Positions 334 through 44,613 of a stretch of DNA of 64,000 bases are shown here, piece by piece. Position numbers and translations under genes: made by a program. The stretch is taken from NCBI RefSeq assembly GCF_003019035.1, contig NZ_CP027447.1; one strand, 5' to 3'. The DNA is from Escherichia coli (lineage in GTDB: Bacteria; Pseudomonadota; Gammaproteobacteria; Enterobacterales; Enterobacteriaceae). The notes under the pieces are model-generated. The model was not told the DNA's origin, did no database searches, and worked only from the letters and a program-made list of their open reading frames with translations. The first letter of the stretch is position 1; every line of letters begins with the position of its first letter.

Positions 334-1094
334 GCGAGTTCTACCGCAGGGGCGGGGAATTCTAAGTGATATCCATCATCGCATCCAGTGCGCCCGGTTT
401 ATCCCCGCTGGCGCGGGGAACACTTGCAGTAGCACTTCAGTTCTGTTTTTGTCACCGGTTTATCCCCGCTGGCGCGGGGAACACGCCTGATAGCGCCTCC
501 AGCCTTCGCCCTGGTGCGGTTTATCCCCGCTGGCGCGGGGAACACTGCATAGCTTTGGCTTCTTCTTTAACGGACGCCGGTTTATCCCCGCTGGCGCGGG
601 GAACACAGTACCACTGTTTTTTCTTCGGTGCCCAGCCACGGTTTATCCCCGCTGGCGCGGGGAACACGTTTACATATTTATACCTACACGCTCAATCGAC
701 GGTTTATCCCCGCTGGCGCGGGGAACACCCGTTTTCGATTGAACAGAAAGATTTCAACACCGGTTTATCCCCGCTGGCGCGGGGAACACAATACAGACCC
801 GTTGTACGGTTTTTGCGAGCACGGTTTATCCCCGCTGGCGCGGGGAACACTTGGAAATCACCTCCCCGATCTCCGCGCTGTCCGGTTTATCCCCGCTGGC
901 GCGGGGAACACCCCTCGGCAAAAATGCCTTTTTCCTCGTCGGTCGGTTTATCCCCGCTGGCGCGGGGAACACCACGGGCCAGACGGTAGCAACAATTTTA
1001 CGGCCGGTTTATCCCCGCTGGCGCGGGGAACACCAAAACGGAAGTGCCAGTATTGCCAGAATCACCGGTTTATCCCCGCTGGCGCGGGGAACAC
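334..1094 (-). CRISPR. Type I-E CRISPR array: 13 repeats of 29 nt (terminal one degenerate), 12 spacers of 32 nt
   Basis: Exact repeat CGGTTTATCCCCGCTGGCGCGGGGAACAC starts at 395, 456, 517, 578, 639, 700, 761, 822, 883, 944, 1005 and 1066 (61-nt period). A degenerate copy at 334-362 keeps the CCGC..GGCGGGGAA core. Leader and cas2 lie on the high-coordinate side, so crRNA sense is the minus strand. Confidence 0.97.
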
Positions 1095-1190
1095 ACTAAG
1101 CATACGTATCTGTTTTTAAACAATTTTATTCCACATCAACAATCTACCAACTAAATTCAAACATTTCCTTATTTTTAAAGAACGGGTAAC
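1095..1190 (-). promoter_or_regulatory. CRISPR leader (AT-rich) between first repeat and cas2
   Basis: AT-rich 96 nt between the newest repeat and the cas2 stop; contains AACAATCTACCAAC at 1138-1151, also found in the second array's leader. Confidence 0.6.
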
Positions 1191-2400
<1,210 letters not shown>

Positions 2401-2404
<4 letters not shown>

Positions 2405-3051
2405 GCCTCTGCTCCAGGTTTGATCAGCATCAGACCACAACCGAACGCCCGGCTTTTGCCATACCCCTGACTGAGACGTTGCAGAAATAACCCAGGATCG
2501 GTGACCGTAAGCATCCCCGTATAATCCACGCTACTGAACTGGATCAGTTGCCGGGAGTTTTCCCGCCGCAGTTGCTGTTGTCGGTAGGCATCAACCGAAG
2601 TATCCAGCAGTGTAAAACCGCTTCTCTCCCCCTGCGCTGCCAGCCAGTCCAGCGCCGCCTGTTGTTGATGCAACCAGACATTTCTTCCTTCCGCCTGCCC
2701 CCTCACCTGCCGTTTCGCCTCCATCAGCAGATCGTGGCGCTTACCCGCTTTACAGACTGTTGGATTCGCCCGCAGGTTGAAACAAAGGGATTGTCCGGTA
2801 TGCAGTTCAGGCGCAAATGACCGGCATTCGATGGTGAACGTTTCACTTTCCGCCGGGCGTTCCTGCGACAGGACAAAAAAGCGAAACGCGCCCTGGAGTT
2901 CTTCCCGACGATAAAGAAATTGCCTTTCTTTGCCGCCAGGAAAAAGATCCCACAGCCACTGATGCATCACATATTCACCGCGATCCACCAAATGCAGCAA
3001 CTGCGCAGGCGAAAGCTGACCGGTATGTAAGGTTATTCTTGAGAGGTACAT
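2401..3051 (-). CDS. casE: CasE / Cas6e crRNA endoribonuclease
   Basis: Frame of ORF 2401-3189; conserved start MYLSRITLH at ATG 3051 preceded by GGAGG; the upstream extension in the track would overlap casD. Confidence 0.85.
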
Positions 3052-3779
3052 GGTTCCTCCTTGCTGAGCCACGGCCCCTGATTGACGGTGCGTTCCCCAA
3101 ACAGCCACTGCTGACGATTTAAAGGAACATCCCGGCGGCGTAATATTTTGCTCGAGACCAGGCCATCGTGCTCCCCTTCCCACCAGCATTCATCCTGAAG
3201 TTTCGGGAGTGAGACTTTCAGTTCGTGGAAACGATCCTGATACTGTTGGTATGCGTTACGTAAGGCATCAGACGCGTTACCTTCAAGCAGTAACGGCGCA
3301 AGGGGTAATGCCAGCGGATGGCTTTTTCGCCCCAGATAAAGCGGAAAAGCCGGATGGCGTAAACCTTCCTGCAACTGTTCGAGGCTGTAAGGCGCATCAG
3401 CTGTTGTTGCCACGGCCACCATCCACCAGGCATCGGTGTAGTAGTCGCGCCGGGAGATAATCGCGCTTAGAAGATCAGGGTCGCTCAACTCTTCGCGACG
3501 GCTGAAATAACGCGCTTTACGCACCTCTTTTGGCATCTGGACCGTGTGATAATCCCGTGCCCAGCGCGGGTTACGGCTGGCGCAAACCACCAGTGAATAG
3601 TGGCGATTAAACGCGTTTAAGCATTCGGTGTCATCACGCCGTATCCCTACCCCGGCAGCCAGCAGCCCCAGCAATGCTGAACGCGAAGGCAGTTCATGGG
3701 TATGACGCACCTCACCGGGTGCATCAACGCCCCAGGATGCCATTGGCCCATGAAGCTGAAAAATCAGATATTGGCTCAT
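3033..3779 (-). CDS. casD: CasD / Cas5e Cascade subunit
   Basis: 248-aa ORF between casC and casE, N-terminus MSQYLIFQLHGPMASWG resembles Cas5e (MRSYLILRLAGPMQAWG in K-12); operon position. Confidence 0.82.
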   Translation of the reverse strand: MSQYLIFQLHGPMASWGVDAPGEVRHTHELPSRSALLGLLAAGVGIRRDDTECLNAFNRHYSLVVCASRNPRWARDYHTVQMPKEVRKARYFSRREELSDPDLLSAIISRRDYYTDAWWMVAVATTADAPYSLEQLQEGLRHPAFPLYLGRKSHPLALPLAPLLLEGNASDALRNAYQQYQDRFHELKVSLPKLQDECWWEGEHDGLVSSKILRRRDVPLNRQQWLFGERTVNQGPWLSKEEPCTSQE

Positions 3780-3789
3780 AAGCCGCCCC

Positions 3790-4845
3790 TTACGCGCAGA
3801 TAAAGTCCAGCACGTCCTTCATGCTTCCCTGTTTGTTCATCACGTCAAAACTTGCGCATTCGGTCTTCTGTTCGTAAACCGTATTCATGTTTTCGCGAAG
3901 CGTTGTAATACGCTGCACCGCCACATCTAACTGACGTGTGCCATTAATGGGTTCATAGAAAGCCGCCGCCAGAGAACGCGGTTGTTCGGTGCCTTTTTCT
4001 GCCAGCGCCCAGGAGGCGTAGGCACGGCTGGCAAAGCTGTTTTGTTTACCGGTTGGGGAAACTTTAAACGCTGCTTCCGTAAAGGCGCGCAGGGTCTGAT
4101 TAGCTAATGCTTCGTCACCGCCGAGGTTTTCGACCAGCAGATCTTTATCAATGCAGATATAGGTGTAGAACAGCGCAGAACCAAATCCAGTTTCACCAAG
4201 ATGCCCTGCACCAGCATCTTCAGAGGCCTGGCGCAAATCATCAACGGCGGTGAAAAAATCATCTTCGACAATCGTTTCACTGACACCAAATGCATGCGCG
4301 ACCTGGCAGGCGGCTTCAACATTAAATTCGGGTTTATTCGCCAGCATACGACCAAACATAGCGATATCTACCGCCATGCGATCTTTACGTAACAAAGCGA
4401 GATCTTCCTCTTTTGGCGCGCGCTTTTCTTCGGCCAGTTGATGGGCCAGCGCTTTTACGGCGTCAAATTCTGCCGGGCTGATATGGACGAGCTGTTCAGT
4501 TTCGGCGTTAGTGAGCGGATCTTTTGGTTTTTTGTCGTTTTTAGCTTTCCCAAGATAATCCGCAATTTTTGCCGCCCATTCGATGGCTTTTTTCTCTTCG
4601 ATGCCTTTCTCAATCAGGATAGTTGCCGCCTCACGCGCAATACGCCCACTGCGAATACCAATATGGCCCGCCAGTGCCTGTTCAAAAAGTGCAGAAGTGC
4701 GCCACGCACGTTTCAGACTTTGCGAGGAAACGCGCAGACGCGTTGCTCCACCCAGCACCACGGTTTTCGGCGCACCGGTGTCATCACGGTTAAGGTTGGC
4801 TGCAGGGTAAGCGGTTAACAAATGAAGCTGAATAAATGTCGTCAT
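3790..4845 (-). CDS. casC: CasC / Cas7e Cascade backbone subunit
   Basis: 351-aa ORF, N-terminus HLLTAYPAANLNRDDTGAPKT...LRVSSQSLKRAWRTS matches Cas7e family. Confidence 0.88.
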   Translation of the reverse strand: MTTFIQLHLLTAYPAANLNRDDTGAPKTVVLGGATRLRVSSQSLKRAWRTSALFEQALAGHIGIRSGRIAREAATILIEKGIEEKKAIEWAAKIADYLGKAKNDKKPKDPLTNAETEQLVHISPAEFDAVKALAHQLAEEKRAPKEEDLALLRKDRMAVDIAMFGRMLANKPEFNVEAACQVAHAFGVSETIVEDDFFTAVDDLRQASEDAGAGHLGETGFGSALFYTYICIDKDLLVENLGGDEALANQTLRAFTEAAFKVSPTGKQNSFASRAYASWALAEKGTEQPRSLAAAFYEPINGTRQLDVAVQRITTLRENMNTVYEQKTECASFDVMNKQGSMKDVLDFICA

Positions 4846-4859
4846 GAGATAGTCCTTTA

Positions 4860-5396
4860 TTAATTTTGTTCGTTATCGGCGTCGCCAGCCTGGTAATATT
4901 CCAGCGCCCAGCGGATACGGATAAATTCTGTTGGCCGCTGCTGACGGCGGTGATGGTTGAGCAGGTCGTCACTCTCCTGGCACCAGCGGAAAATATCGTC
5001 TGCCAAAGAGATAAGATTGACGGAACCGTTTAATAATTTGACCGCGCGACGTAACTGGCGCAGTAAATCATCCGGCGTTTTGACTGCCGACAGGCGAGTA
5101 AAACGCCCCTCAGACATTACCGCCGCCAACTGCGCGGCAAAAGGCTGCCGTTCATCAATGGCTTTTACATTGGCGGCAACGGCGGCAACCAGCGCCAGTG
5201 CGGTAAAACGCCACTCCTGTGATTCAATTTTCCACAACGTGTGGGTCTGCATCAGCAGAGAACGAAAACCTTCTGACAGACAAACATCATTAACCGTTGT
5301 GCTACGCCGCAGACTGGCACGATTGCCGCGTTTTTCCTGCAACTCTTCGAGCCATTTACGCAGCGTGGCTTTGTGCTCCTCTTTTACAATACTCAT
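4860..5396 (-). CDS. casB: CasB / Cse2 Cascade small subunit
   Basis: 178-aa ORF in the Cse2 slot between casA and casC; sequence is divergent from the K-12 CasB I remember, so the call rests mainly on position and size. Confidence 0.72.
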   Translation of the reverse strand: MSIVKEEHKATLRKWLEELQEKRGNRASLRRSTTVNDVCLSEGFRSLLMQTHTLWKIESQEWRFTALALVAAVAANVKAIDERQPFAAQLAAVMSEGRFTRLSAVKTPDDLLRQLRRAVKLLNGSVNLISLADDIFRWCQESDDLLNHHRRQQRPTEFIRIRWALEYYQAGDADNEQN

Positions 5397-6961
5397 TCAG
5401 CAGCCTCCTGCTTTTTCTCCCTGGCGGCTTTAGCACTTTGCTTCTCCGCCGATGTTGTAAAATATTTCTTGCGCGCGGTCATGACGCGTTTCAAATCAAC
5501 GGGCTCATAAGGATTGGTGAATACCCGCTCGTCAAAATCCTGACGCGCGAATAACCACATTTCCTTTTGCCATTTGCTGAGTAATTCATCCGGCTCCTGA
5601 CCTTCTTCAATTTGACGCACTAACCTCAGGAAGCGATGCTGAGTTTTGTTCCAAAAGTCGATATCCACAAAACTGAAATCACCCCGTGCACCTTTTGGAT
5701 CGGAGAACCATGCTTCTTTCAATGCACTCCGTAACAGACTTAGAATCCGTGAAGCCGTTTGCGCAGCCAGCCGCAGCTTTGGTATCTGGCCTTCTTTTTT
5801 ATTGAGCAGCAGCGGGAAATGGTGTTCGTACCAACAGCGCGCTTTCATGTTGTCAAAATCATAACCAAATCCCCATAGGCCCACTTTTGCCTGTTTCAGA
5901 CTGCTGGCATTAAAGAGTTTCACCACCAGCGCGGGAAGTTCCGTATTGTTTTCTGATTTACCCGTTTCGATAAGGCCTAACCAGTCGCGCCAGATTAAAC
6001 CGCCCGGTTGTGGTTTAACGGAGTAAAACTCGCCACCCTCTTTAAGTGGTACACGGTAAGGCGTTAAGGGATGCTGCCACATGGCATAATTGGCACCATA
6101 ATTTTTGGTCGTCATCAGGCTCAGGAGCGCGTCGTTCTGCTCGTCGCAAATATCGCAGTTGCCGACTGTCGTGGTATTAAAATCAATACGTATACGCCGC
6201 GGCATTCCCCAGTACGCCTGGAGTTTATTGACCTGATCATGGGTTACCACCGCACCGGCCAGTTCGCTGGTACGCGTCGGGCCTAGCCAGGGGAAAATCA
6301 GATCGTCAAATTTTTTGGGTAGCGGTAAGTCGGCTTCATCCTGCGGCATCACGTTGAGCCACAGTTTGCGCCACAAGGGTGTTTGTTGATTGCCCTGATA
6401 TTCCTGTAATTCAATGAGAGTCGTCATCGGCCCACCGCCGCGTAAACCGGTGCGATAGCCTTTGCCGCCCGCGGGTGCATTCAACTGTAAAGAGAACAAG
6501 GCCAATGCTAAGCAATGGGGGCACAGATATTCCGTTACACCCCGCTTGATAAAATGGTCTTTATTAAACTTCGTCGTTTGAAAGCCGGGAATCTCAGGCA
6601 GTAGCGAAGCGACCGGAACTTTATCTCCCGTGAGCGCCTCAAAATCCTGCATAAATGAAGATGAATCAGGCCCAAACTGGAAAGCATGTTCTAAAGACAG
6701 CAATGCTTCTCGTAGCTTTTCAGCTTCCAGTCCGTCTTCCCAGATATCATCCCAACGACGATGATCTTTTGGCGCGAAGCTGGTTTGTAGTAGTCCCAGC
6801 AAAAACTGCCAGGCCGCACCTTGTAAATCTGCTCGCGGTGCGGCGATATCGACAACATTCTCATCAGCCAGATCGACTGATGCCAGCTTGCCTGTCGTTC
6901 CGTCTTTGAAACGAACAGGCAACCACGGGGTTGTCAGAAGTGAAAACGAGTTCATACGCAT
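5393..6961 (-). CDS. casA: CasA / Cse1 Cascade large subunit
   Basis: 522-aa ORF with a GLRGG motif (GKGYRTGLRGGGPMTT) as in Cse1; position between cas3 and casB. Confidence 0.82.
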   Translation of the reverse strand: MRMNSFSLLTTPWLPVRFKDGTTGKLASVDLADENVVDIAAPRADLQGAAWQFLLGLLQTSFAPKDHRRWDDIWEDGLEAEKLREALLSLEHAFQFGPDSSSFMQDFEALTGDKVPVASLLPEIPGFQTTKFNKDHFIKRGVTEYLCPHCLALALFSLQLNAPAGGKGYRTGLRGGGPMTTLIELQEYQGNQQTPLWRKLWLNVMPQDEADLPLPKKFDDLIFPWLGPTRTSELAGAVVTHDQVNKLQAYWGMPRRIRIDFNTTTVGNCDICDEQNDALLSLMTTKNYGANYAMWQHPLTPYRVPLKEGGEFYSVKPQPGGLIWRDWLGLIETGKSENNTELPALVVKLFNASSLKQAKVGLWGFGYDFDNMKARCWYEHHFPLLLNKKEGQIPKLRLAAQTASRILSLLRSALKEAWFSDPKGARGDFSFVDIDFWNKTQHRFLRLVRQIEEGQEPDELLSKWQKEMWLFARQDFDERVFTNPYEPVDLKRVMTARKKYFTTSAEKQSAKAAREKKQEAAE

Positions 6962-7044
6962 CCTCTCGTAAAAAAGACCATCCCTGGTCGGTTGTCCATC
7001 CTTTTTTGTGTATCAACTATTCAGAGAATCCTGTCGCAGACATC

Positions 7045-9744
7045 TCAACCAACCTTGCCAATCAATCCCTCCGTAGCCGAATACCCACAACTTTCGTCAT
7101 CGGTGACTAAAATCACGTTTGCCATCTCCGGATCATGCCGCTGTTCAACGCACCACTGCCTGAACGCATCCCCTTCCAGTAAAGAAAACTCATCCCGATG
7201 TTTTTTCCACCAGCTTCGGCGCACTCTGACAACGCTCATTTCCCATGCGTGTGCACCTGTGGCATAAGGCTTCACCACACCGTCAATACAGGTAGCCAGC
7301 CACAGGGAAACAGACTCTTCAGCCAGACGTGTCGACAGTTTTTCCGGGAGGTAATCGTTGATATTGGCGGCATAGCCGGGCCTGAAGTTCAGTACAAACT
7401 TTTTAGCCATTGCGCGATCGCAGTAATATTTGCCCACTTGCTCCTGCTCGCTGCGGGCAAACCCTTCCGGCATTACTACGTCCTCACCGTAGACTGATTC
7501 AATCAGAAGCCGGGCTGAGTGTGGCATCTGAATAGCACCTTGCTCACGCAGCACACGCTGCGTCAGCCAGATTCGCCCATGATCGGGATAGACAAATGCA
7601 CTGTTACGCATGGCACTGCCAAACCATTCGTCACCCGGAGAGTCGTCCCAGACGGGGGCCAGAATCAGCAATTCAGGAGGGTGACGCTCGTCTTTACCGT
7701 CACGCTTTAACTGGCCATTCATATCGCGGATATGTCGCTGTAATCGCCCTGCTCGCTGGATCAGTAAATCAACAGGGGCAAAGTCGGAAATCATTTCGTC
7801 CAGGTCGCAGTCAACGCTCTGCTCCAGGACTTGAGTACAAATGAGGACTTTTCCGGCACGCTGTGAACAGTCTTCTTTACCAAAGCGTGCCAGCGTCTCC
7901 GTTTCAATTCGCTGGCGATCGCTAAAAGCAAAGCGGCTATGAAAAAGTGAAAGGCTGGAAGCAGGAATGACGCCGCGGGCAAGTAACTGACGATGAACCT
8001 GGATGGCGTCATCGACAGAATTTCGGATCCAGGCGATACATTTCCCCTGACTTACCGCCGATTCGATACGCGCAATACACTCTTGTTCGCTATGAAGCCA
8101 ACCCACACTCACGCTGCGCTCAACGTCTTTGCGCGTCGCTACCCGGTGTGAATGCACATCGGATTTCGTAACGTGCGTCAGCCAGGGGTAATCATCCTTT
8201 TCCAGGAACGGAGCTTCTTGCTGGCCCTCTATACCACGCGCAAAGGCAGCAACGAGTTTGTCGCGCTGCTGTTGAGATAACGTGGCAGAAAGCAAAATGA
8301 CGCTGTTTCCGCCACGCGCCTGCCGCTCGATCAGCCCTTCAAGAATGCATGACATGTAAGCGTCACAGGCATGGATCTCATCAGCCAGCAGGATTTTGTT
8401 ACTCAGTCCCAGAAGCCGCAGATTATTATGTTTGAACGGCATCACAGCCATCATCGCCTGATCCAGCGTGCCGACGCCAATTTCAGCCAGTAGCGCCTTC
8501 TTGTTACTGTCGGCAAACCAGGCCGCACATCCCTGACTGCACGTTTGTTCATCCGGTTCTTCTGACCCGACTAAATCACCGGACCAGAGTGATTCATTAA
8601 AGCGGTCCATTAATGTTCGGGCACTGTGTGCCAGCACCAGGCTGGGGCGGGACTCTGGCGAATAGAAAGCAAGCCAGGTTTTGACCAGTCGATCGTACAT
8701 GGCATTGGCCGTTGCCATTGTTGGCAGGCCAAAAAACAAACCCTGCGCTTTCCCCGCAGCCATCAACCTGTGCGCCAGGATAAGCGCCGCTTCTGTTTTA
8801 CCTGCGCCGGTTACATCCTCCAGAATAAATAACTGTGGTCCCGGCTGGCTGATATCCAGATCCAGCACCTTTTGCTGTAGCGGTGTCGGATTCTCAATAA
8901 AAGGAAACAGCGTATTAATTCCGGTGAAAGGCGCGCTTTCTGCTTTTGGAGGAAAGACGGTTAAGGCGTTTTGAGCCTGAACTAAAGTTTTCTGCCAGTA
9001 ATCTTCAATATCCATTGTCTGTGCGACGCGTGGAAAATATCGCGTTGACGATCCCGTCCAGTCTGCAAGTACGACGGTTGCAGAGATATACCAGGAAAGT
9101 TGTTTTATAAGTTCAACGCCCTCGTCATCATCCCAGAATGTGGGGATCTCTATGAGCGGAAACAGTACCTTGATTGCAAGGAGAAAATCTCGTGCGGCAC
9201 CTTTGTCTTCAGGCAGAAAATTATCCAGTTCATCCATACGCTCAGGGGGTCGACCATGATGCCCGGTAGTCATGGGCATCCACATCTCCATCACCCGTTT
9301 AAGTTTGCGCGGAGAGAGTGAAGATGAAGGAAGCAACTCCTGACATTCACTTAAATAATGGTTCCACAACCAGTAGCCCAGCGTTGAATGAGAGATCTTT
9401 TCGTAATTCTTTCTTGCGCCTTCCGGAACCTTGAGTTGTGGGTGCAGGTAAAGTTGCTGAAAAGAGCGGGCAAATTTTCCAATATCGTGCCAGCACAGCA
9501 GCCAGGCGAAAAATTGTGCTGCCAGCTCCGTGTCAGCGAAACCTAATTGACGAAAATAGTCAGCCAGTCCGAAGCAATTGCTTTTAACCATTAAATAGCC
9601 CATCGCGGCTACATCCAGCGAATGCCAGCAAAGAAGGTGATAGTCGTCACCACCCTCTTTCTCGCCGCGTCGGGTTTTTCCCCAGAAATCAAAAAAAGTC
9701 ACAATATTTTTATCCTTCAGTAAACTTAAAGGATATTTACGCAT
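7045..9744 (-). CDS. cas3: Cas3 HD nuclease / DExH helicase
   Basis: 899-aa ORF with N-terminal HD region (HSLDVAAMGY...WHDIGK), Walker A DVTGAGKTEAAL and DEIHA box. Confidence 0.95.
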   Translation of the reverse strand: MRKYPLSLLKDKNIVTFFDFWGKTRRGEKEGGDDYHLLCWHSLDVAAMGYLMVKSNCFGLADYFRQLGFADTELAAQFFAWLLCWHDIGKFARSFQQLYLHPQLKVPEGARKNYEKISHSTLGYWLWNHYLSECQELLPSSSLSPRKLKRVMEMWMPMTTGHHGRPPERMDELDNFLPEDKGAARDFLLAIKVLFPLIEIPTFWDDDEGVELIKQLSWYISATVVLADWTGSSTRYFPRVAQTMDIEDYWQKTLVQAQNALTVFPPKAESAPFTGINTLFPFIENPTPLQQKVLDLDISQPGPQLFILEDVTGAGKTEAALILAHRLMAAGKAQGLFFGLPTMATANAMYDRLVKTWLAFYSPESRPSLVLAHSARTLMDRFNESLWSGDLVGSEEPDEQTCSQGCAAWFADSNKKALLAEIGVGTLDQAMMAVMPFKHNNLRLLGLSNKILLADEIHACDAYMSCILEGLIERQARGGNSVILLSATLSQQQRDKLVAAFARGIEGQQEAPFLEKDDYPWLTHVTKSDVHSHRVATRKDVERSVSVGWLHSEQECIARIESAVSQGKCIAWIRNSVDDAIQVHRQLLARGVIPASSLSLFHSRFAFSDRQRIETETLARFGKEDCSQRAGKVLICTQVLEQSVDCDLDEMISDFAPVDLLIQRAGRLQRHIRDMNGQLKRDGKDERHPPELLILAPVWDDSPGDEWFGSAMRNSAFVYPDHGRIWLTQRVLREQGAIQMPHSARLLIESVYGEDVVMPEGFARSEQEQVGKYYCDRAMAKKFVLNFRPGYAANINDYLPEKLSTRLAEESVSLWLATCIDGVVKPYATGAHAWEMSVVRVRRSWWKKHRDEFSLLEGDAFRQWCVEQRHDPEMANVILVTDDESCGYSATEGLIGKVG

Positions 9745-11111: not shown

Positions 11112-11147
11112 GCCTGATGCGACGCTCACGCGTCTTATCAGGCCTAC
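11112..11147. repeat. REP element (repetitive extragenic palindrome)
   Basis: GCCTGATGCGACGCTCACGCGTCTTATCAGGCCTAC in the cysH-cysI intergenic region. Confidence 0.65.
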
Positions 11148-11163
11148 AAGACCGGGCTGATGG

Positions 11164-17582: not shown

Positions 17583-17692
17583 TTGTAGGCTGCACGCCAC
17601 ATCCGACATTCAGCGCCTGATGCGACGCTTGACGCGTCTTATCAGGCCTACAAGTCCCCAGGCCAGAACCGTAGGCAGGATCATCCGGCAAC
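17583..17692. repeat. REP/BIME cluster
   Basis: GCCTGATGCGACGCTTGACGCGTCTTATCAGGCCTAC flanked by further GTAGGC/GCCGGATG half-sites between ygcP and ygcQ. Confidence 0.6.
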
Positions 17693-24670: not shown

Positions 24671-26149
24671 ATGTCGAAAAAATACATCATAGGGATTGAT
24701 GGCGGAAGTCAGAGCACAAAAGTGGTGATGTATGATCTGGAAGGTAATGTGGTTTGCGAAGGCAAAGGCTTATTGCAGCCGATGCACACGCCAGATGCCG
24801 ATACCGCAGAACATCCTGACGACGATTTATGGGCATCATTATGTTTTGCCGGTCACGATTTGATGAGTCAGTTTGCCGGAAATAAAGAAGATATTGTCGG
24901 CATTGGTCTGGGATCCATCCGTTGCTGCCGTGCGTTATTGAAAGCCGATGGCACACCAGCTGCGCCGTTGATTAGCTGGCAGGATGCACGCGTTACACGC
25001 CCTTACGAACATACGAATCCTGACGTGGCATATGTCACCTCTTTTTCGGGTTATCTGACGCATCGCTTAACCGGCGAGTTTAAAGACAATATCGCCAACT
25101 ATTTTGGTCAGTGGCCGGTGGATTATAAGACCTGGGCATGGAGCGAAGATACCGCGGTAATGGAGAAGTTTAATATTCCCCGACAGATGCTTTTTGATGT
25201 GCAAATGCCGGGCACTGTTCTTGGGCATATCACTCGTCAAGCCGCGCTGGCGACACATTTCCCGGCTGGGCTGCCGGTTGTTTGTACCACCAGTGATAAA
25301 CCGGTAGAAGCTCTGGGAGCCGGATTACTGGATGATGAAACGGCGGTGATTTCTCTTGGCACCTACATCGCGCTGATGATGAACGGTAAAGCACTGCCGA
25401 AAGATCCGGTAGCGTACTGGCCGATTATGTCTTCTATTCCGCAAACCTTGCTGTATGAAGGTTACGGTATCCGCAAAGGCATGTGGACGGTGAGCTGGCT
25501 ACGCGACATGCTAGGCGAGTCGTTAATTCAGGATGCCAAAGCACAGGATCTTTCACCGGAAGATTTGCTCAACAAAAAAGCGTCTTGTGTGCCGCCTGGC
25601 TGTAATGGTCTGATGACGGTGCTGGACTGGCTGACCAATCCGTGGGAACCATACAAACGCGGGATTATGATCGGCTTTGATTCCAGCATGGATTACGCAT
25701 GGATATATCGTTCGATACTGGAAAGCGTGGCGCTGACGCTGAAGAACAATTACGACAATATGTGTAATGAAATGAATCACTTTGCAAAGCATGTGATCAT
25801 TACTGGCGGCGGTTCGAACAGCGATCTGTTTATGCAGATTTTTGCCGACGTGTTCAACCTTCCGGCACGCCGTAACGCCATTAATGGTTGTGCAAGTCTG
25901 GGGGCAGCGATCAATACGGCGGTAGGTCTGGGGCTATACCCGGATTACGCAACGGCTGTCGACAAAATGGTTCGCGTGAAAGATATCTTTATGCCTGTTG
26001 AGAGCAACGCCAAACGCTACGACGCGATGAATAAAGGCATTTTCAAAGACCTAACCAAACACACTGATGTGATCCTGAAAAAATCGTATGAAGTGATGCA
26101 TGGTGAGCTGGGGAATGAAGATTCGATCCAGAGCTGGTCGAATGCGTAA
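24671..26149 (+). CDS. ygcE: FGGY-family carbohydrate kinase
   Basis: 492-aa ORF MSKKYIIGIDGGSQSTKVVMYD... with FGGY N- and C-terminal ATPase signatures. Confidence 0.9.
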   Translation: MSKKYIIGIDGGSQSTKVVMYDLEGNVVCEGKGLLQPMHTPDADTAEHPDDDLWASLCFAGHDLMSQFAGNKEDIVGIGLGSIRCCRALLKADGTPAAPLISWQDARVTRPYEHTNPDVAYVTSFSGYLTHRLTGEFKDNIANYFGQWPVDYKTWAWSEDTAVMEKFNIPRQMLFDVQMPGTVLGHITRQAALATHFPAGLPVVCTTSDKPVEALGAGLLDDETAVISLGTYIALMMNGKALPKDPVAYWPIMSSIPQTLLYEGYGIRKGMWTVSWLRDMLGESLIQDAKAQDLSPEDLLNKKASCVPPGCNGLMTVLDWLTNPWEPYKRGIMIGFDSSMDYAWIYRSILESVALTLKNNYDNMCNEMNHFAKHVIITGGGSNSDLFMQIFADVFNLPARRNAINGCASLGAAINTAVGLGLYPDYATAVDKMVRVKDIFMPVESNAKRYDAMNKGIFKDLTKHTDVILKKSYEVMHGELGNEDSIQSWSNA

Positions 26150-26194
26150 GTGAGGAAGACCGGGCGGGAAACTGCCCGGCCTGAACATACCTGA

Positions 26195-26343
26195 ATGGTT
26201 ATCCCCGCTGACGCGGGGAACATAAGTTCGACAACTTAAAAAATGATAACAAGTCCGGTTTATCCCCGCTGATGCAGGGAACATAATAAAAACTTTAACT
26301 AGTTCGGTTTATCCCTGTTTTTACAAGGAATATTAACTACACT
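26195..26343 (-). CRISPR. Decayed orphan CRISPR remnant: 3 degenerate I-E repeats, 2 spacers
   Basis: Repeat-like units at 26195-26223, 26256-26284 (CGGTTTATCCCCGCTGATGCAGGGAACAT) and 26315-26343 (CGGTTTATCCCTGTTTTTACAAGGAATAT); spacers 32 and 30 nt. Confidence 0.7.
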
Positions 26344-26786
26344 CGATGTCTTTAGAATAAAAGACAATACGAATCGCACTTTATCAATTTTCACTTAAAG
26401 TATGAACTGGATATCTTTATTCATAAGAACTATTCATCAACAGCCTATAGAGGCGGTTATGTAAAACCACTCATTAGCCTCAAAACAAAGACAAATTTCC
26501 AGATTTATTACTTAATCAATGAATAACAAGCTTAAAAAATACACTGTTATTCTAAAGAAAAAATTAACAGGCATTAATTAATATTAAAAAAATAATAGAT
26601 TAAAATTTCTTAACGGTTTAAGGATTATACAAATAACACTTTGATTAAATTTGATTTTTTGTATCGATAATTGTGAACTTATCTGGCATGGAGAACTATT
26701 TTGAACATGAGGTGTTATGTGGATATGTTGCTTATTACAAGTACAGCTAATATAAAAACTTGAGAAAGAGATAACGGGTTATATGG

Positions 26787-27059
26787 TGGTTTATCCCCGC
26801 TGGTGCGGGGAACTCTTGGCATAGGCGCTATAGCGGCGCTCTGTGTCCGGTTTATCCCCGCTGGCACGGGGAACTCGTTGGTGCCGTTGTTGTAACCGTA
26901 GAAACCGACGGTTTATCCCCGCTGACGTGGGGAACTCGCAGGTCAACACGGGCGATAAACCCGGCTGACCGGTTTATCCCCGCTGACGTGGGGAACTCGA
27001 TAAGCAGATTGCAGAACTACAGGCGAAGGACGGTTTATCCCCGCTGACGTGGGGAACTC
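26787..27059 (-). CRISPR. Orphan type I-E CRISPR array: 5 repeats, 4 spacers
   Basis: 29-nt repeats at 26787, 26848, 26909, 26970 and 27031 (61-nt period), consensus CGGTTTATCCCCGCTGRCRYGGGGAACTC; ends in ...AACTC rather than the ...AACAC of the cas-proximal array. Confidence 0.95.
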
Positions 27060-27200
27060 TCTAAACATAACCTATTATTAATTAATGATTTTTTAAGCCA
27101 GTCACAATCTACCAACTTTACAGGATCACACAAACAACACATCCATTATGTTAAAGAACACTTAATCCATTGATTAAAAAAGTAAATATTTAAAATAACT
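27060..27200 (-). promoter_or_regulatory. Leader of the second CRISPR array
   Basis: AT-rich; CTAAACATA... start and CACAATCTACCAAC at 27104-27117 parallel the first leader at the same distance from repeat 1. Confidence 0.55.
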
Positions 27201-27397
27201 CTATACCCACTAAAATCTACCAAACTTTACCGCAATAATTTTCACTCCAACGAAAAATTAACGCCACAGAATTTGTAGAGAATGATAATGATTAGCCCAG
27301 AATGGGCAAAATGGAGTTTTTTCAGAGGCGACAAAGAATATAAATAAGTGGAAGTCTTTACAGGTTCCACCCATTTATAACGCTTATAAATGTTTAA

Positions 27398-28069
27398 TCA
27401 GGCAATATTCAAATATTTATGTGTCTGCATCGACAAACGCCAGTTGCGCGCTATGCAGGTATCGATACATAAACGCGTAGCATCTTCCTTCTGGCTAATT
27501 GGCTGAAGTGCAATGACTCGCGGTTTATCATCGGTCAGCGTCGCAAGCAATTCATCCAGTGCTTCGATATCACGTACGCGTCCCACTGGATGCTTGATTT
27601 CGTTGGCTCGCTCCAGTGCCTGTGACAACACTTCATAGCCGCCGCGCATATTCAGCTTTGGCGATACGGTAACCCAGGTATTCGGTGTGCAGCGTACTTC
27701 ATGAGTACCACTGGTTTCGATCTGGCAGCTAAAACCGTTCTTTTCGAGCTGGTCAGTCAGTGGCAGCAAATCATGAATGCAAGGCTCACCACCCGTAATC
27801 ACCACATGCCGTGCGGTGTATCCCTGGCGACCAATGACAGCCAGCAAATCTTCACTGCTCGCAGCCCCCCACTTATCACTCTCTTTGGTCTTCGCCAGAA
27901 TGCTGAAAAGGGAAACTTCCCGATCCTCAAGCTTTTCCCAGGTGTGTTTGGTGTCGCACCAGGCACAGCCAACCGGGCATCCCTGTAAACGAATAAAAAT
28001 GGCGGGGACGCCGGTAAAGTAACCCTCACCTTGCAGGGTCTGGAACATCTCGTTAATCGGGTACTGCAT
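27398..28069 (-). CDS. queE: 7-carboxy-7-deazaguanine synthase (radical SAM)
   Basis: 223-aa ORF MQYPINEMFQTLQGEGYFTGVPAIFIRLQGCPVGCAWCDTKHTW (CxxxCxxC radical-SAM motif variant typical of QueE). Confidence 0.95.
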   Translation of the reverse strand: MQYPINEMFQTLQGEGYFTGVPAIFIRLQGCPVGCAWCDTKHTWEKLEDREVSLFSILAKTKESDKWGAASSEDLLAVIGRQGYTARHVVITGGEPCIHDLLPLTDQLEKNGFSCQIETSGTHEVRCTPNTWVTVSPKLNMRGGYEVLSQALERANEIKHPVGRVRDIEALDELLATLTDDKPRVIALQPISQKEDATRLCIDTCIARNWRLSMQTHKYLNIA

Positions 28070-28241: not shown

Positions 28242-28844
28242 ATGCTCAGGATATTCATCGTAATTATATTTATTGTCAATTTATCAGGCTGTGGATATAA
28301 CGATATTCAAACCTATGATGAGCAGGTTAACGCCTCCTGGTCTGAGGTATTGAATCAATATCAACGTCGCGCCGATCTTATTCCTAATCTTGTCGCCAGT
28401 ATTAAAGGTTATTCCAGCCATGAACAAGAGGTACTGGAAGCCGTAACATTGGCACGTAGCCAGGCTAATCGCGCCAGTAGCGATCTTCAGCAAGCTCCGG
28501 GAGATGCGCAAAAATTACAAGCCTGGCAACAAGCCCAGGCGCAGGTGTCTCGCACTCTCGGTCAGTTAACGATAATTAGTGAACGTTACCCTGAGTTAAA
28601 AGCTCAGGAACTCTATCAAAACTTAATGGTACAGCTCGAAGGAAGTGAAAATAGAATTGCCGTTGCGCGAGGAAGATATATTAAAGCCATTGAACAATAT
28701 AATGTCACTATCCGCAAATTCCCCGCTGTATTAACCGCAAAGGTCATGGATTACACACCAAAGAAAAATTATTTGCCGGATGATGTCACCGCAGTAAGTA
28801 AAGCCCCAACAATAGATTTTAGCCAGAATGCTAATGCGCATTAA
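28242..28844 (+). CDS. LemA-family lipoprotein
   Basis: 200-aa ORF with signal peptide and lipobox (LSGC), then a LemA-like helical region (NASWSEVLNQYQRRADLIPNLV). Confidence 0.85.
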   Translation: MLRIFIVIIFIVNLSGCGYNDIQTYDEQVNASWSEVLNQYQRRADLIPNLVASIKGYSSHEQEVLEAVTLARSQANRASSDLQQAPGDAQKLQAWQQAQAQVSRTLGQLTIISERYPELKAQELYQNLMVQLEGSENRIAVARGRYIKAIEQYNVTIRKFPAVLTAKVMDYTPKKNYLPDDVTAVSKAPTIDFSQNANAH

Positions 28845-28857
28845 GCGGGGAAGTTCT

Positions 28858-29751
28858 ATGCGAAATTTTATCTTCCTTATGGCTTTCTTCTGTTCATCTG
28901 TGTTTGCCACACAAATTCCAGTACCTGAATCCCCCAAGTATGTGAATGACTTAACCGGCACATTAACAAACAGCGAAGTAAACACCCTGACCAACCAGAT
29001 TAAAGCCCTGACGCAAAAAAACCACGCACAGTTGGTCGTGTTAGTGGTTGATACAACAGGCGATGAAACCATCGAGCAGTACGCAACGCGGGTATTCGAT
29101 AGCTGGAAACCGGGTGATAAAGACCGCGATGATGGCGTTCTACTGTTAGTCGCCTGGCAGGATCATACCGTGCGTATTGAAATCGGTTACGGACTGGAAG
29201 GTATTATTACGGATGCACAGTCCGGGAAAATTATTCGCAACAGTATTATTCCGGCATTTAAAAAAGGCGACCTGGCTGGTGGTTTACAAAAGGGGATCAA
29301 CGATATTGAAAGTCGCCTGACGGGGAATAATTCAGCAACGATAACACCGACCGATCACCCTTTGCCCTTTAGCGGTTGGTGGGCTTTGTTAGTCTGGGCG
29401 ATAATACTGACGTTTATTTCTGCCAGAGGATATATCAAAACGCTGGGACTGATTTGCTTCGCAGCTATTGTACTGGCCTTTGTTTTACCTATAGCAGGTT
29501 TCAGCGGAAGCTGGGGAGTGCTCGCAACATTACTCTGCTTCGCCACACCGTTCCTGGCTGTCGCCATCGCTTTTACTCCCTTCGGCAAAAAGGTTCGGGA
29601 TTCGATGCGTAATACCAACCAGCCATCACGCCATACAAGAAGTAATTCTTCCTCCCACTATTCGTCATCGTCATCCTCTTCATTCGACAATGACAATTTC
29701 CGCGGTGGTGGCGGTTCATCTGGTGGCGGTGGCGCTTCCGGACGCTGGTAA
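28858..29751 (+). CDS. TPM-domain membrane protein (YgcG-like), paralog 1
   Basis: Frame of ORF 28828-29751; start at MRNFIFLMAFF (signal peptide) after GGGGAAG; TPM core ([24 protein letters not shown]), 2-3 TM helices, Ser-rich linker and tail [15 protein letters not shown]. Confidence 0.85.
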   Translation: MRNFIFLMAFFCSSVFATQIPVPESPKYVNDLTGTLTNSEVNTLTNQIKALTQKNHAQLVVLVVDTTGDETIEQYATRVFDSWKPGDKDRDDGVLLLVAWQDHTVRIEIGYGLEGIITDAQSGKIIRNSIIPAFKKGDLAGGLQKGINDIESRLTGNNSATITPTDHPLPFSGWWALLVWAIILTFISARGYIKTLGLICFAAIVLAFVLPIAGFSGSWGVLATLLCFATPFLAVAIAFTPFGKKVRDSMRNTNQPSRHTRSNSSSHYSSSSSSSFDNDNFRGGGGSSGGGGASGRW

Positions 29752-29765
29752 CAAAAGGAATTGAT

Positions 29766-30914
29766 ATGCGTATTTTTCTCTTACTTCTGATGCTATGCGG
29801 TTTTCAGGTATTCGCTGAACAATTGCCTTCAGTAACTGACTTAACCGGGACATTAACGACAGAAGAACAAACTGCTTTAAATCAACAATTACAGACTCTC
29901 GAGCAGCAAAACCACTTCCAGGTGGCCGTGTTGGTTACGCCGACTACAGGGGGCAAAAACATTAAACTTGCAGCCTCGCAGAGATACGGGTTATATCACT
30001 GGAAACCCGTTGGAGAGAAGCGATATGGCGAAGGTATCTTAATTCTCGTCGTATGGCCGGAAGGGCTGGCGTCAATGAAGATTGGACATGGACTGGAACA
30101 GATGTTGCCGCCAGAACAAGCTGCGCAAATTGTTCGTTACCATATGCAGCCAGAATTCGAAAAAAGCAATCTCTTTGCTGGATTAACGGGCGGAATTGAA
30201 AGCATCGCACAGTTTACCCATATCAAAGCGAACCTTAGCCCTTTGGATGCTTTAGCCAATCATCTGTTTGCTAATCCACAACGTTCGCTGCCATGTCTTG
30301 CCTGGACACTGCTGATGATCGTTGCCATCGTTGTCCTCTGGCGATTTACCAGCCGTCCTGGGCCTGGCATATGGATGATATCGATGATTACCCCTATGGT
30401 CTGGTTTTTCTTCTTTCAGGATGATGTCATCATTCGGCGGGTGTCGATCGTTTGTTTTAGTTTATTGTTAGCAACAACCTGCTGGCAGCGTCTCGCGGTA
30501 GTTTTTAATATGTGCCGCGCATTTCCTATGATGCTGGCCCCCAAAAATAAAAACACTAAAGTGAAAAAACAAAAGAAGACCCAGCAATTTCCTGAATCAG
30601 GACGAAATTCATTGTTTGTCGTGATGCTGATAATTGTTGTGGGATGGTGCCTGGTGTTCGCCAGTAATAAAGATATTGCATTCATCTCAACAATTATTGG
30701 GTTAATTGATCATTTTATCGGCCCAATAACCATTGCTGGCATCGTTCTGCTGATCATTGTGGCCAAATTTACTGGCAATCTTAAACTGGGGTCAGGAGAA
30801 AAAAGCAACAGGAAAACGGGGAATCGTAATGCTCATTCTCGCTCTTCGTCGAAAAATTCTTTCCGCGGTGGCGGCGGTTCTTCAGGAGGCGGCGGTTCAT
30901 CCGACCGTTGGTGA
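29766..30914 (+). CDS. TPM-domain membrane protein, paralog 2 (extended multi-TM insert)
   Basis: 382-aa ORF: signal peptide, TPM core, about 5 hydrophobic segments, lysine-rich linker, tail [17 protein letters not shown]. Confidence 0.85.
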
Positions 30915-30919
30915 TCGTT

Positions 30920-31792
30920 ATGCGTATAATCCTTTTTCTACTCACTTTATGGTGCCTTCCTGTGCTTGCCCAGCAAATTGCTGTGCCGGAGCTGCGCCAA
31001 CAGGTGACCGATATTACTGGTACCTTAAGCACGTCTGAACAACAATCACTAACACAACAGCTGCAGGATATTACACAAAAAACACGGGCACAGGTCGCTG
31101 TATTAATAGTGCCATCCACCGGAGACGATTCTATTGAACAATATGCTACAAGAGTTTTTGACAATTGGCGTTTAGGAGATGCCAAACGTAATGATGGGAT
31201 ACTGATCATTGTTGCCTGGTCGGATCGTACTGTCCGCATCCAGGTAGGTTATGGGCTGGAAGAAAAGGTAACCGATGCTCTGGCTGGCAATATCATCCGT
31301 AGCATCATGATACCCGCCTTTAAAAAACAAAAATTAGCTAAGGGATTAGAATTAGCTATAATCGCTTTGAATAACCAACTCACTTCACAACACCAATATT
31401 CGTCTAATCCTTCAGAAAGTGAATCAGCGTCTTCCAGTGATCATTACTACTTTGCTATTTTTTGGGTATTTGCAGTGATGTTCTTCCCTTTCTGGTTTTT
31501 TCATCAAGGCAATAATTTTTGTCGGGCATTTAAAAGCAGTGTTTGTATTTCAACAGTCTATCTTATAGATTTATTCCTGTTCTCCGATCAAACTTTTTCC
31601 ATTGCTGTATTTTCCTTCTTTTTTACTTTCACCACCATTATGGTCTTTACCTGTTTATGTGTACTTCAGAAAAAAGCATCTGGTAGAAGTTATCATTCAG
31701 ACAACAGCGGTTCCGGTGGCGGCTCAAGTGGCGGCGGATTTAGCGGCGGGGGCGGTTCTTCTGGCGGTGGCGGCGCGTCCGGTCGCTGGTAA
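30920..31792 (+). CDS. TPM-domain membrane protein (YgcG-like), paralog 3
   Basis: Frame of ORF 30908-31792 (track start is a TTG at 30908; first ATG at 30920); TPM core close to paralog 1, tail ...[15 protein letters not shown]. Confidence 0.85.
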
Positions 31793-44593: not shown

Positions 44594-44613
44594 CTTTATG
44601 TCCTTTTTCAAAA

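What the first reader, a model, noticed from the sequence alone, without database searches (positions are those of the whole stretch)
26195..27200. Two orphan arrays 17 kb from the cas operon with repeat variants that preserve the stem by wobble
The 5-repeat array uses ...AACTC repeats with internal variants GCTGGTGCGGGG, GCTGGCACGGGG and GCTGACGTGGGG, which keep the hairpin through G-U-compatible changes. It is separated by about 440 bp of AT-rich DNA from a decayed 3-repeat remnant. Different repeat termini in the two live arrays (AACAC versus AACTC) suggest separate histories, yet both would be processed by the same Cas6e if the stem is intact.
Basis: seen in the sequence. Interest (0 to 1): 0.4.

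Follow-up and report, generated by a model that had tools for sequence, protein, structure and literature searches.

The report
E. coli's known second CRISPR locus
This is the well-described cas-distal CRISPR locus that almost every E. coli carries between ygcE and queE. Its only unusual feature is a minority repeat allele that puts a mismatch, not a wobble pair, into the crRNA hairpin.

Summary
Window 26195-27059 holds a decayed three-unit repeat remnant, 453 bp of DNA at 27% G+C, and a five-repeat, four-spacer array with the stated variants.

It is not new. The window is E. coli SCU-301 (100% identity). The locus lies between ygcE and queE (ygcF). This is the published CRISPR-II locus (CRISPR2.2 + CRISPR2.3 + leader2.3) of the type I-E system. 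The AACAC/AACTC difference is the published CRISPR-A/CRISPR-T polymorphism. A complete cas-E operon lies about 17 kb away, so the arrays are cas-distal, not orphan.

The "wobble" reading is only partly right. The leader lies to the right, so crRNA is the minus strand. On that strand GGTGC is a loop change and GGCAC gives a U·G wobble. The dominant GACGT repeat (three of five copies, leader-proximal) gives an A·C mismatch (-9.7 vs -15.1 kcal/mol). It is G·U only on the non-transcribed strand.

GACGT occurs in 118 of 5,426 complete E. coli genomes. In six of the seven other carrier loci read (L002-L007) it forms leader-proximal runs, and their spacers differ from those here. Integration therefore probably tolerates it. 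Processing is untested. No protospacers were found. Interest is low.

The parts
26195..26223 (-). CRISPR2.2 remnant, unit 1 (ATGGTTATCCCCGCTGACGCGGGGAACAT; 23/29 identical to the canonical repeat)
   Evidence: identical in the K-12 derivative, MDR_56 and GF60
26224..26255 (-). Fossil 32-nt spacer of CRISPR2.2 (AAGTTCGACAACTTAAAAAATGATAACAAGTC)
   Evidence: the same spacer is present in all 10 loci compared, including the K-12 derivative and O157:H7
26256..26284 (-). CRISPR2.2 remnant, unit 2 (24/29)
26305..26333 (-). CRISPR2.2 remnant, unit 3. It is strongly decayed (18/29), lies only 20 nt after unit 2, and still folds as a weak hairpin (-7.9 kcal/mol).
26334..26786 (.). AT-rich stretch between the two arrays (453 bp, 27.4% G+C). 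It has no detectable similarity to leader2.3.
   Evidence: z = 1.3 against shuffles; 92-99.8% identical in five other E. coli loci
26787..26815 (-). CRISPR2.3 repeat R1, leader-distal terminal unit (TGG...GGTGC...AACTC). On the crRNA strand the change is in the loop (GCCA to ACCA).
   Evidence: the same terminal allele occurs in L003-L007
26816..26847 (-). Spacer S1, the oldest. It is shared with 43 other E. coli genomes, in each as the only match; where a feature is annotated under it, that feature is a CRISPR.
26848..26876 (-). Repeat R2 (GGCAC). It gives a U·G wobble at the loop-closing pair on the crRNA strand (-12.8 kcal/mol).
   Evidence: allele present in 30 genomes, one copy each
26877..26908 (-). 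Spacer S2, private to SCU-301
26909..26937 (-). Repeat R3 (GACGT). It gives an A·C mismatch in the stem and a C-to-U change in the loop on the crRNA strand (-9.7 kcal/mol).
26938..26969 (-). Spacer S3, private to SCU-301
26970..26998 (-). Repeat R4 (GACGT allele)
26999..27030 (-). Spacer S4, the newest, private to SCU-301
27031..27059 (-). Repeat R5, leader-proximal (GACGT allele). This unit would be the integration site and the template for the next repeat.
27060..27397 (-). Leader2.3 and the rest of the intergenic DNA up to queE (30.2% G+C). The first 70 nt are 68/70 identical to the K-12 derivative, and the whole stretch is 95% identical.
   Evidence: (D7); PMC3903273
24671..26149 (+). ygcE (FGGY-family carbohydrate kinase), left flank of the CRISPR-II locus
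27398..28069 (-). queE (ygcF), right flank of the CRISPR-II locus
395..1094 (-). CRISPR2.1, the cas-adjacent array: 12 canonical AACAC (CRISPR-A) repeats. A possible decayed 13th unit lies at 334-362; this rests on the annotated array extent and an 18/29 match.
1095..1190 (-). Leader2.1 (type A), homologous to leader2.3
   Evidence: D7, 71% over 87 nt; z = 7.2
1191..9744 (-). Complete type I-E cas operon: cas3, cse1, cse2, cas7, cas5, cas6e, cas1, cas2. None is annotated as a pseudogene.

Best explanation
[quoted passage not shown] It consists of a species-wide fossil array (CRISPR2.2, 26195-26333), 453 bp of AT-rich DNA, the cas-distal array CRISPR2.3 (26787-27059) and its leader (27060 onward).

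Shown here:
- The position between ygcE and queE.
- The repeat and spacer geometry.
- A conserved leader.
- An intact cas-E operon about 17 kb away.

Inferred from the established K-12 mechanism:
- A promoter in leader2.3 transcribes the array on the minus strand.
- Cas6e cuts each repeat at the 3' base of its hairpin (GAGUUCCCCGCGCCAGCGGGG^AUAAACCG). This gives 61-nt crRNAs that load Cascade and guide Cas3.
- Cas1-Cas2 inserts new spacers at the leader-repeat junction (27059/27060) and copies the leader-proximal repeat.

The repeat variants are ordinary transition mutations. Any that arises in the leader-proximal repeat is copied at each later acquisition. This explains why GACGT occupies the three leader-proximal positions here, and up to a dozen in the other strains read.

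On the crRNA strand GACGT replaces a G-C pair with an A·C mismatch. It also changes the IR1 ruler motif from CCCCGCG to CCCCACG. My inference is that integration tolerates this. crRNA maturation from three of the five repeats is probably reduced rather than abolished. As in other wild-type E. coli, the whole system is probably largely silent.
For: - Identity and position: the query 25900-27500 is 100% identical to E. coli SCU-301. It overlies the annotated ygcE, CRISPR and queE features. 5,421 of 5,426 complete genomes have a match.
- Published description: a CRISPR-II locus flanked by ygcE and ygcF, with CRISPR2.2 and CRISPR2.3 separated by 0.5 kb and a leader next to CRISPR2.3 (PMC3903273). 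[quoted passage not shown]
- Fossil status of the remnant: 139/139 identical to the K-12 derivative, MDR_56 and GF60, and 138/139 to O157:H7.
- Strand: leader2.1 and leader2.3 are homologous and both lie to the right of their arrays (D7, z = 7.2). Only the minus strand gives the known 21-nt 3' handle and 8-nt 5' handle (PMC4288178).
- cas genes: all eight products pass the NCBIfam type I-E cut-offs. None is flagged as a pseudogene.
- Folds on the crRNA strand: canonical -15.1, GGTGC -14.3, GGCAC -12.8 (U·G), GACGT -9.7 kcal/mol (five pairs, an A·C mismatch, one pair). The three GACGT hairpins are still present in the centroid fold of the whole transcript.
- Propagation: the exact GACGT repeat occurs in 118 genomes, with a median of 4 and a maximum of 7 exact copies. 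It is the first repeat next to an identical leader in 101 genomes. In six of the seven other carrier loci read (L002-L007) it forms leader-proximal runs with 32-nt spacers. Spacer sets differ between SCU-301, L002, L006 and the group L003/L004/L005/L007, which share most of theirs. L002 also carries a nested further mutation in its five newest repeats.
Against: - No expression or processing data exist for this strain.
- The promoter scan of the leader is no better than chance (5 sites found, 4.1 expected).
- Rfam returns nothing for the region.
- The mosaic order of repeat alleles in L010 (canonical, GACGT, then three canonical) and in L002 (a GACGT-like terminal repeat) does not fit simple copying of the first repeat. 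It needs recombination or gene conversion as well.
- Goren et al. found that block substitutions in either inverted repeat cut adaptation about 100-fold (PMC5039180). A single IR1 change could therefore be costly.
- Two other GACGT-bearing strains have lost cas function. One keeps only a partial cas3, and one has a frameshifted cas3. The allele may therefore persist because nothing selects against it.
- None of the four spacers has a detectable target.
Confidence: 0.9

Rival explanations
1. Both arrays are live, and the repeat variants have been filtered by selection so that the Cas6e hairpin is kept through G·U wobble. All crRNAs from the distal array would then be processed normally.
For: The GGCAC repeat is a genuine U·G wobble on the crRNA strand. 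GGTGC changes only the loop. The minimum-free-energy fold of every variant is still a hairpin in the same register.
Against: GACGT is the majority allele (three of five repeats). On the crRNA strand it gives an A·C mismatch with a loss of 5.4 kcal/mol. It is G·U only on the non-transcribed strand, where GGCAC in turn becomes a C·A mismatch. Three variants are too few to show selective filtering.
Confidence: 0.2
2. The distal array is an evolutionary fossil in this strain. It would be silent and no longer acquiring spacers, and the repeat variants would be neutral decay of the kind that produced CRISPR2.2.
For: None of the four spacers has a detectable target in phages, plasmids, 5,426 E. coli genomes or IMG/VR. 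Other strains with the GACGT allele have a deleted cas operon or a frameshifted cas3. Three different variant alleles sit in a five-repeat array, while the 12 repeats of the cas-adjacent array are all canonical. From general knowledge, H-NS silences the E. coli I-E system in laboratory conditions.
Against: Spacers S2-S4 are private to SCU-301 among 5,426 genomes, which points to acquisitions after this lineage split off. Leader2.3 is conserved. All eight cas genes are intact. In six of the seven other carrier loci read (L002-L007), GACGT runs sit at the leader-proximal end, and three further spacer sets are seen among them. This is the pattern expected if acquisitions continued after the mutation arose.
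Confidence: 0.35
3. The remnant and the 453-bp AT-rich stretch are a former array together with its own decayed leader. CRISPR-II would then have arisen by duplication of an array-leader unit.
For: The AT-rich stretch lies on the leader side of the remnant and has a leader-like composition (27.4% G+C). Two short direct repeats are shared with the leader2.3 region (families D3 and D4). One of them overlaps a perfect IHF-consensus match in each copy (26634-26646 and 27163-27175).
Against: Local alignment of the stretch with leader2.3 scores no better than shuffled sequence (z = 1.3), and against leader2.1 z = -0.3. The two true leaders give z = 7.2. IHF-consensus matches across the window are not above chance (72 found, 60 expected). 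The literature assigns leaders only to CRISPR2.1 and CRISPR2.3 (PMC3903273, PMC3737337).
Confidence: 0.15

Closest known systems
E. coli CRISPR-II locus (CRISPR2.2 + CRISPR2.3 + leader2.3) of the type I-E system, as described by the Mojica group (PMC3903273, PMC3737337); this is 'CRISPR II' of K-12
   Same: The flanking genes are the same (ygcE and ygcF/queE). There are two repeat blocks about 0.5 kb apart. The fossil CRISPR2.2 block is identical over 139/139 bases to a K-12 derivative. Leader2.3 is 95% identical. The array has 29-bp type-2 repeats with 32-nt spacers, and it is served by cas-E genes at the iap-cysH locus.
   Different: Only strain-level content differs. There are four spacers, three of them private to this strain. 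The repeats are CRISPR-T (AACTC), whereas the K-12 CRISPR2.3 is mostly AACAC. Three repeat alleles differ from the canonical core, including the GACGT allele found in about 2% of complete genomes.
E. coli CRISPR-A / CRISPR-T repeat variants and the cas-E1 (O157-type, cas-EO) versus cas-E2 (K-12-type) modules
   Same: The cas-adjacent array has AACAC (type A) repeats and a leader unlike that of K-12. hok lies next to cas3. The K-12-specific Cse1 and Cas3 NCBIfam models score below their cut-offs. All of this fits the published E1/EO module (PMC3737337, PMC3903273).
   Different: Nothing of note. The mix of a type A CRISPR2.1 with a type T CRISPR2.3 is what independent histories of the two loci (as published) would allow. 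The O157:H7 strain read here shows type T repeats at CRISPR2.3, and its CRISPR2.1 is reported as type A (PMC3737337).
Thermus thermophilus type I-E repeat and Cas6e (Cse3) hairpin; sequence recalled from general knowledge, not tested here
   Same: The architecture is the same: a stem with a tetraloop, cut at the 3' base. The T. thermophilus stem has A-U at the position where the GACGT allele has A·C.
   Different: In the E. coli GACGT allele only the 5' arm has changed (G to A). The pair is therefore broken rather than replaced, and no compensating C-to-U change is present in this window.

Membership tests
E. coli CRISPR-II locus (CRISPR2.2/CRISPR2.3) | Lies between ygcE and ygcF (queE) | tested here: met
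   ygcE at 24671-26149 (+), queE at 27398-28069 (-), with an annotated CRISPR between them
E. coli CRISPR-II locus (CRISPR2.2/CRISPR2.3) | Type-2 29-bp repeats matching CGGTTTATCCCCGCTGRCGCGGGGAACWC, with 32-nt spacers and a 61-bp period | tested here: met
   five units with 1-2 mismatches to the canonical repeat, four spacers of exactly 32 nt
E. coli CRISPR-II locus (CRISPR2.2/CRISPR2.3) | Two repeat blocks separated by about 0.5 kb, the first being the short conserved CRISPR2.2 | tested here: met
   453-bp gap; the remnant is 139/139 identical to the K-12 derivative
E. coli CRISPR-II locus (CRISPR2.2/CRISPR2.3) | AT-rich leader2.3 adjoining the ...AACWC end of CRISPR2.3 | tested here: met
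   68/70 identical to the K-12 derivative next to the repeat; 30% G+C; homologous to leader2.1 (z = 7.2)
[quoted passage not shown] | cas3, cse1, cse2, cas7, cas5, cas6e, cas1 and cas2 all present and intact | tested here: met
   all pass the type I-E NCBIfam cut-offs; no pseudogene flags
Orphan CRISPR array (array in a genome without cognate cas genes) | No cognate cas genes in the genome | tested here: not met
   an intact cognate operon lies 16.5-17 kb away in the same window
Canonical Cas6e substrate hairpin | Uninterrupted 7-bp stem with a tetraloop on the crRNA (minus) strand | tested here: not met
   met for R1 (loop change) and for R2 (U·G wobble). Not met for R3, R4 and R5, which have an A·C mismatch at the pair next to the loop-closing pair (-9.7 against -15.1 kcal/mol). 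This is a prediction only.
Canonical Cas6e substrate hairpin | Intact cleavage-site context GGGG^AUAAACCG, giving the 8-nt 5' handle | tested here: met
   unchanged in R2-R5. R1 ends in ...AUAAACCA; it is the terminal unit, so no crRNA uses it as a 5' handle.
Canonical Cas6e substrate hairpin | Actual cleavage by Cas6e and loading into Cascade | not testable with these tools
   Needs small-RNA sequencing or an in vitro cleavage assay
Adaptation-competent type I-E repeat (Goren et al. 2016, PMC5039180) | IR2 anchor motif GCGGG intact in the leader-proximal repeat | tested here: met
   the minus strand of R5 reads ...CAGCGGGGAT...
Adaptation-competent type I-E repeat (Goren et al. 2016, PMC5039180) | IR1 anchor motif CCCCGCG intact in the leader-proximal repeat | tested here: inconclusive
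   The motif reads CCCCACG in R5, one substitution. Even so, in L002-L007 (six of the seven other carrier loci read) GACGT-type repeats form leader-proximal runs (3-12 copies per array) with regular 32-nt spacers, which argues for tolerance.

The most novel reading that the evidence does not exclude
The GACGT repeat allele breaks one pair of the Cas6e hairpin (A·C) and alters the IR1 ruler motif. The most novel reading is that it is nevertheless fully competent for both spacer integration and crRNA maturation. It would then be a natural, population-level demonstration that the E. coli I-E machinery tolerates a disrupted upper stem. The exact sequence was found in no paper of the searched library and in no species-representative genome.
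Probability: 0.4. Interest if true: 0.25.

Novelty: already known. Interest (0 to 1): 0.1.

Why it matters
It matters little. The locus, its fossil neighbour, its leader and the A/T repeat polymorphism are all in the literature, and nearly every E. coli genome carries them.

The residual value is a small natural experiment. A repeat allele in about 2% of complete E. coli genomes (118 of 5,426) puts an A·C mismatch in the crRNA hairpin and changes a Cas1-Cas2 ruler motif. It still appears to have been copied through several rounds of spacer acquisition.

That could guide a quick test of how much stem disruption Cas6e and the integrase tolerate. It also shows that wobble arguments about CRISPR repeats must be made on the transcribed strand.

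Tried and rejected
1. Rfam scan of 26000-27500 at E <= 1: no match to any family, so it gave no independent call on strand.
2. Sigma-70 promoter and terminator scan of 26100-27450: 5 promoter-like sites against 4.1 expected and no terminators. Uninformative.
3. IHF consensus WATCAANNNNTTR: perfect minus-strand matches in both leaders (1187-1199, 27163-27175) and in the intervening DNA (26634-26646). The window total of 72 against 60 expected is not above chance. I did not use it as evidence.
4. The idea that the 453-bp AT-rich stretch is a decayed leader: rejected for lack of similarity (z = 1.3 against leader2.3, -0.3 against leader2.1).
5. Spacer targets:
   - blastn of the whole array against 50,697 phage records and 72,556 plasmid records at E <= 1 matched only other CRISPR arrays, plus chance-level 27/30 matches in a Bacillus phage and in Erwinia plasmids.
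   - Megablast of the four concatenated spacers against 5,426 E. coli genomes gave one match per genome in 44 genomes and none elsewhere in those chromosomes. S1 is shared by 43 other genomes; where a feature is annotated under it, that feature is a CRISPR.
   - Exact scans of IMG/VR for S2-S4, with every sixth base free, found nothing.
6. The idea that GACGT is the normal repeat of another species, brought in by transfer: there is no exact match in one genome for each of 100,044 species.
7. Literature search for the GACGT repeat sequence in either orientation: no papers.
8. Papers on Cascade-crRNA binding and on Cas6e tools (PMC4288178, PMC11317134) contain no mutational data for the stem position in question.

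Full report
**1. What is in the sequence**

The region holds two blocks of type I-E repeats.

- The first block has units at 26195-26223, 26256-26284 and 26305-26333. They match the canonical repeat CGGTTTATCCCCGCTGGCGCGGGGAACTC at 23, 24 and 18 of 29 positions.
- The second block has five 29-bp units at 26787, 26848, 26909, 26970 and 27031. The period is exactly 61 bp and there are four 32-nt spacers.
- All five units of the second block end in AACTC. Their cores read GGTGC (1 copy), GGCAC (1 copy) and GACGT (3 copies).
- The blocks are separated by 453 bp at 27.4% G+C, against 50.3% for the whole window.
- A degenerate pattern for the repeat finds 19 copies in the window and none in 100 shuffles.

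**2. Where the window comes from and what the locus is**

- The stretch 25900-27500 is 100% identical to the chromosome of E. coli SCU-301, isolated from a human rectal swab. It overlies the annotated features ygcE, CRISPR and queE.
- 5,421 of 5,426 complete E. coli genomes have a match to this stretch.
- The literature describes exactly this arrangement. The I-E system is split between CRISPR-I (iap-cysH, with CRISPR2.1 and the eight cas-E genes) and CRISPR-II. CRISPR-II is flanked by ygcE and ygcF. It carries CRISPR2.2 and CRISPR2.3 separated by 0.5 kb, with a leader next to CRISPR2.3 (PMC3903273).
- The window also contains CRISPR-I. It has 12 canonical AACAC repeats at 395-1094, a leader at 1095-1190, and cas2 to cas3 on the minus strand at 1191-9744.
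- All eight cas products pass the NCBIfam type I-E cut-offs. None is annotated as a pseudogene.

The arrays are therefore cas-distal members of a complete system, not orphans.

**3. The remnant is a species-wide fossil**

- The 139-bp CRISPR2.2 block is 139/139 identical in a K-12 derivative, MDR_56 and GF60. It is 138/139 identical in O157:H7.
- Its 32-nt "spacer" is present in all 10 loci compared.
- The 453-bp stretch after it has leader-like composition but no significant similarity to leader2.3 (z = 1.3) or leader2.1 (z = -0.3). The two true leaders align with z = 7.2.
- I therefore cannot call it a decayed leader.

**4. AACAC versus AACTC**

[quoted passage not shown] Type A repeats at CRISPR2.1 go with leader-A and the non-K-12 cas variant (PMC3737337).

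Almendros et al. concluded that the cas/leader/CRISPR2.1 module has been exchanged while CRISPR-II evolved clonally.

In this window, three things fit the non-K-12 (E1/EO) module:
- the K-12-specific Cse1 and Cas3 models score below their cut-offs;
- hok lies next to cas3;
- the leader differs from that of K-12.

**5. Which strand is the crRNA, and what the variants do on it**

Both leaders lie to the right of their arrays (family D7). The published repeat orientation puts the W position at the leader-proximal end. The mature E. coli crRNA has an 8-nt 5' handle and a 21-nt 3' handle with the hairpin (PMC4288178). Only the minus strand gives this split: GAGUUCCCCGCGCCAGCGGGG^AUAAACCG.

Minimum free energies of the 29-nt repeats folded as RNA (kcal/mol):

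| Allele | crRNA (minus) strand, | Plus strand, |
|---|---|---|
| Canonical | -15.1; 7-bp stem, tetraloop | -14.2 |
| GGTGC | -14.3; loop G to A | -14.9 |
| GGCAC | -12.8; U·G wobble at the loop-closing pair | -10.7; C·A mismatch, loop opens to 6 nt |
| GACGT | -9.7; five pairs, an A·C mismatch, one pair; loop C to U | -12.3; G·U wobble |

On neither strand are all variants wobble-compatible. On the real crRNA strand the majority allele breaks a pair.

The hairpin register is still the minimum-free-energy fold. The three GACGT hairpins are also present in the centroid fold of the whole 301-nt transcript. I expect weakened rather than abolished processing, but this is inference.

Cuts in GACGT repeats are needed for one or both ends of three of the four crRNAs (S2, S3 and S4).

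**6. Population view of the variants**

- The exact GACGT repeat occurs in 118 of 5,426 genomes, in 411 places, with a median of 4 and a maximum of 7 per genome.
- It is the leader-proximal repeat next to an identical leader in 101 genomes.
- It is absent from one representative genome for each of 100,044 species, and from every paper in the searched library.
- In six of the seven other carrier loci read (L002-L007), GACGT repeats sit in a run next to the leader, with canonical repeats further away. All spacers are exactly 32 nt. Spacer sets differ between SCU-301, L002, L006 and the group L003/L004/L005/L007, which share most of theirs.
- One strain (L002) has 12 GACGT-type repeats. Its five newest carry a further nested substitution.
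- This is the signature expected if a mutation in the first repeat is copied at each acquisition. The allele therefore appears competent for integration, even though it changes the IR1 anchor motif from CCCCGCG to CCCCACG. Goren et al. identified that motif as one of two molecular rulers (PMC5039180).

Two caveats apply.
- Two arrays are mosaic in a way that needs recombination or gene conversion as well: L010, and the terminal repeat of L002.
- Two other GACGT strains lack cas function. One keeps only a partial cas3, and one has a frameshifted cas3.

GGCAC occurs once per genome in 30 genomes. The GGTGC terminal repeat is shared with L003-L007.

**7. Spacers**

- S1, the oldest, is shared with 43 other genomes. 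It is the only match in each of them, and where a feature is annotated under it, that feature is a CRISPR.
- S2-S4 are private to SCU-301.
- No protospacer was found in phage records, plasmid records or E. coli chromosomes. IMG/VR was scanned for S2-S4 only, with every sixth base left free, and also gave nothing.
- Lack of identifiable targets is usual for E. coli arrays (general knowledge; see also the abstract of PMC10910852).

**8. Verdict**

This is a correct observation of a textbook locus. It is wrong on "orphan", and largely wrong on "wobble-preserved hairpin".

The one item that may not have been described is the GACGT allele and its spread in leader-proximal runs. It is a minor natural variant of a known kind. 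Interest is low.

Noticed in passing
L002 (NZ_ABACVG020000001.1) 1074-1895; L010 1188-1460: The order of repeat alleles is mosaic in some strains. L010 reads canonical, GACGT, then three canonical units toward the leader. L002 has a GACGT-like terminal repeat followed by two canonical units and then a GACGT run. L002 also has one spacer duplicated in tandem. Simple copying of the first repeat cannot produce this, so recombination or gene conversion between repeats is implied.
   Followed up: partly
window 26195-26333 compared with 26334-26786 and 27060-27397: The fossil CRISPR2.2 block is 99-100% identical across five diverse E. coli loci. The non-coding DNA on either side is only 92-99.8% and 93.5-95.6% identical. 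The fossil may simply be short, or it may be under some constraint.
   Followed up: partly
window 26634-26646, 27163-27175 and 1187-1199 (minus strand): There are perfect matches to the IHF consensus WATCAANNNNTTR about 100 nt into both leaders, and a third in the AT-rich stretch between the arrays. The one at 26634-26646 lies inside a short direct repeat shared with the leader2.3 region (family D4). Matches across the window are not above chance.
   Followed up: partly
window 334-362: [quoted passage not shown] The annotated array in the public record (761 bp, room for 13 units) reaches this far, though its boundaries are offset by 8 nt from the units found here. This was not checked further.
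   Followed up: no
window about 9939-10091: A hok/gef family toxin gene lies between cysH and cas3. Published work reports hok-sok here in all strains except those with the K-12-type cas-E2 module.
   Followed up: no
window 28242-31792 (plus strand): Downstream of queE there is a LemA-family gene followed by three consecutive TPM-domain genes. Each TPM-domain gene ends in a similar glycine/serine-rich stretch (family D6). K-12 has yqcG and ygcG at this position instead.
   Followed up: no
window 43253-45954: Tandem paralogues gudD and gudX show 75-83% DNA identity over several blocks at a 1,364-bp offset (families D4, D5, D8, D10). This is a known gene pair.
   Followed up: no
window 11128-11153 and 17632-17657: Two near-identical copies (96%) of a 26-nt element, ACGCGTCTTATCAGGCCTACAAG..., lie about 6.5 kb apart, at roughly the cysI/cysH and ygcP/ygcQ gene boundaries. 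They look like REP-type extragenic repeats.
   Followed up: no
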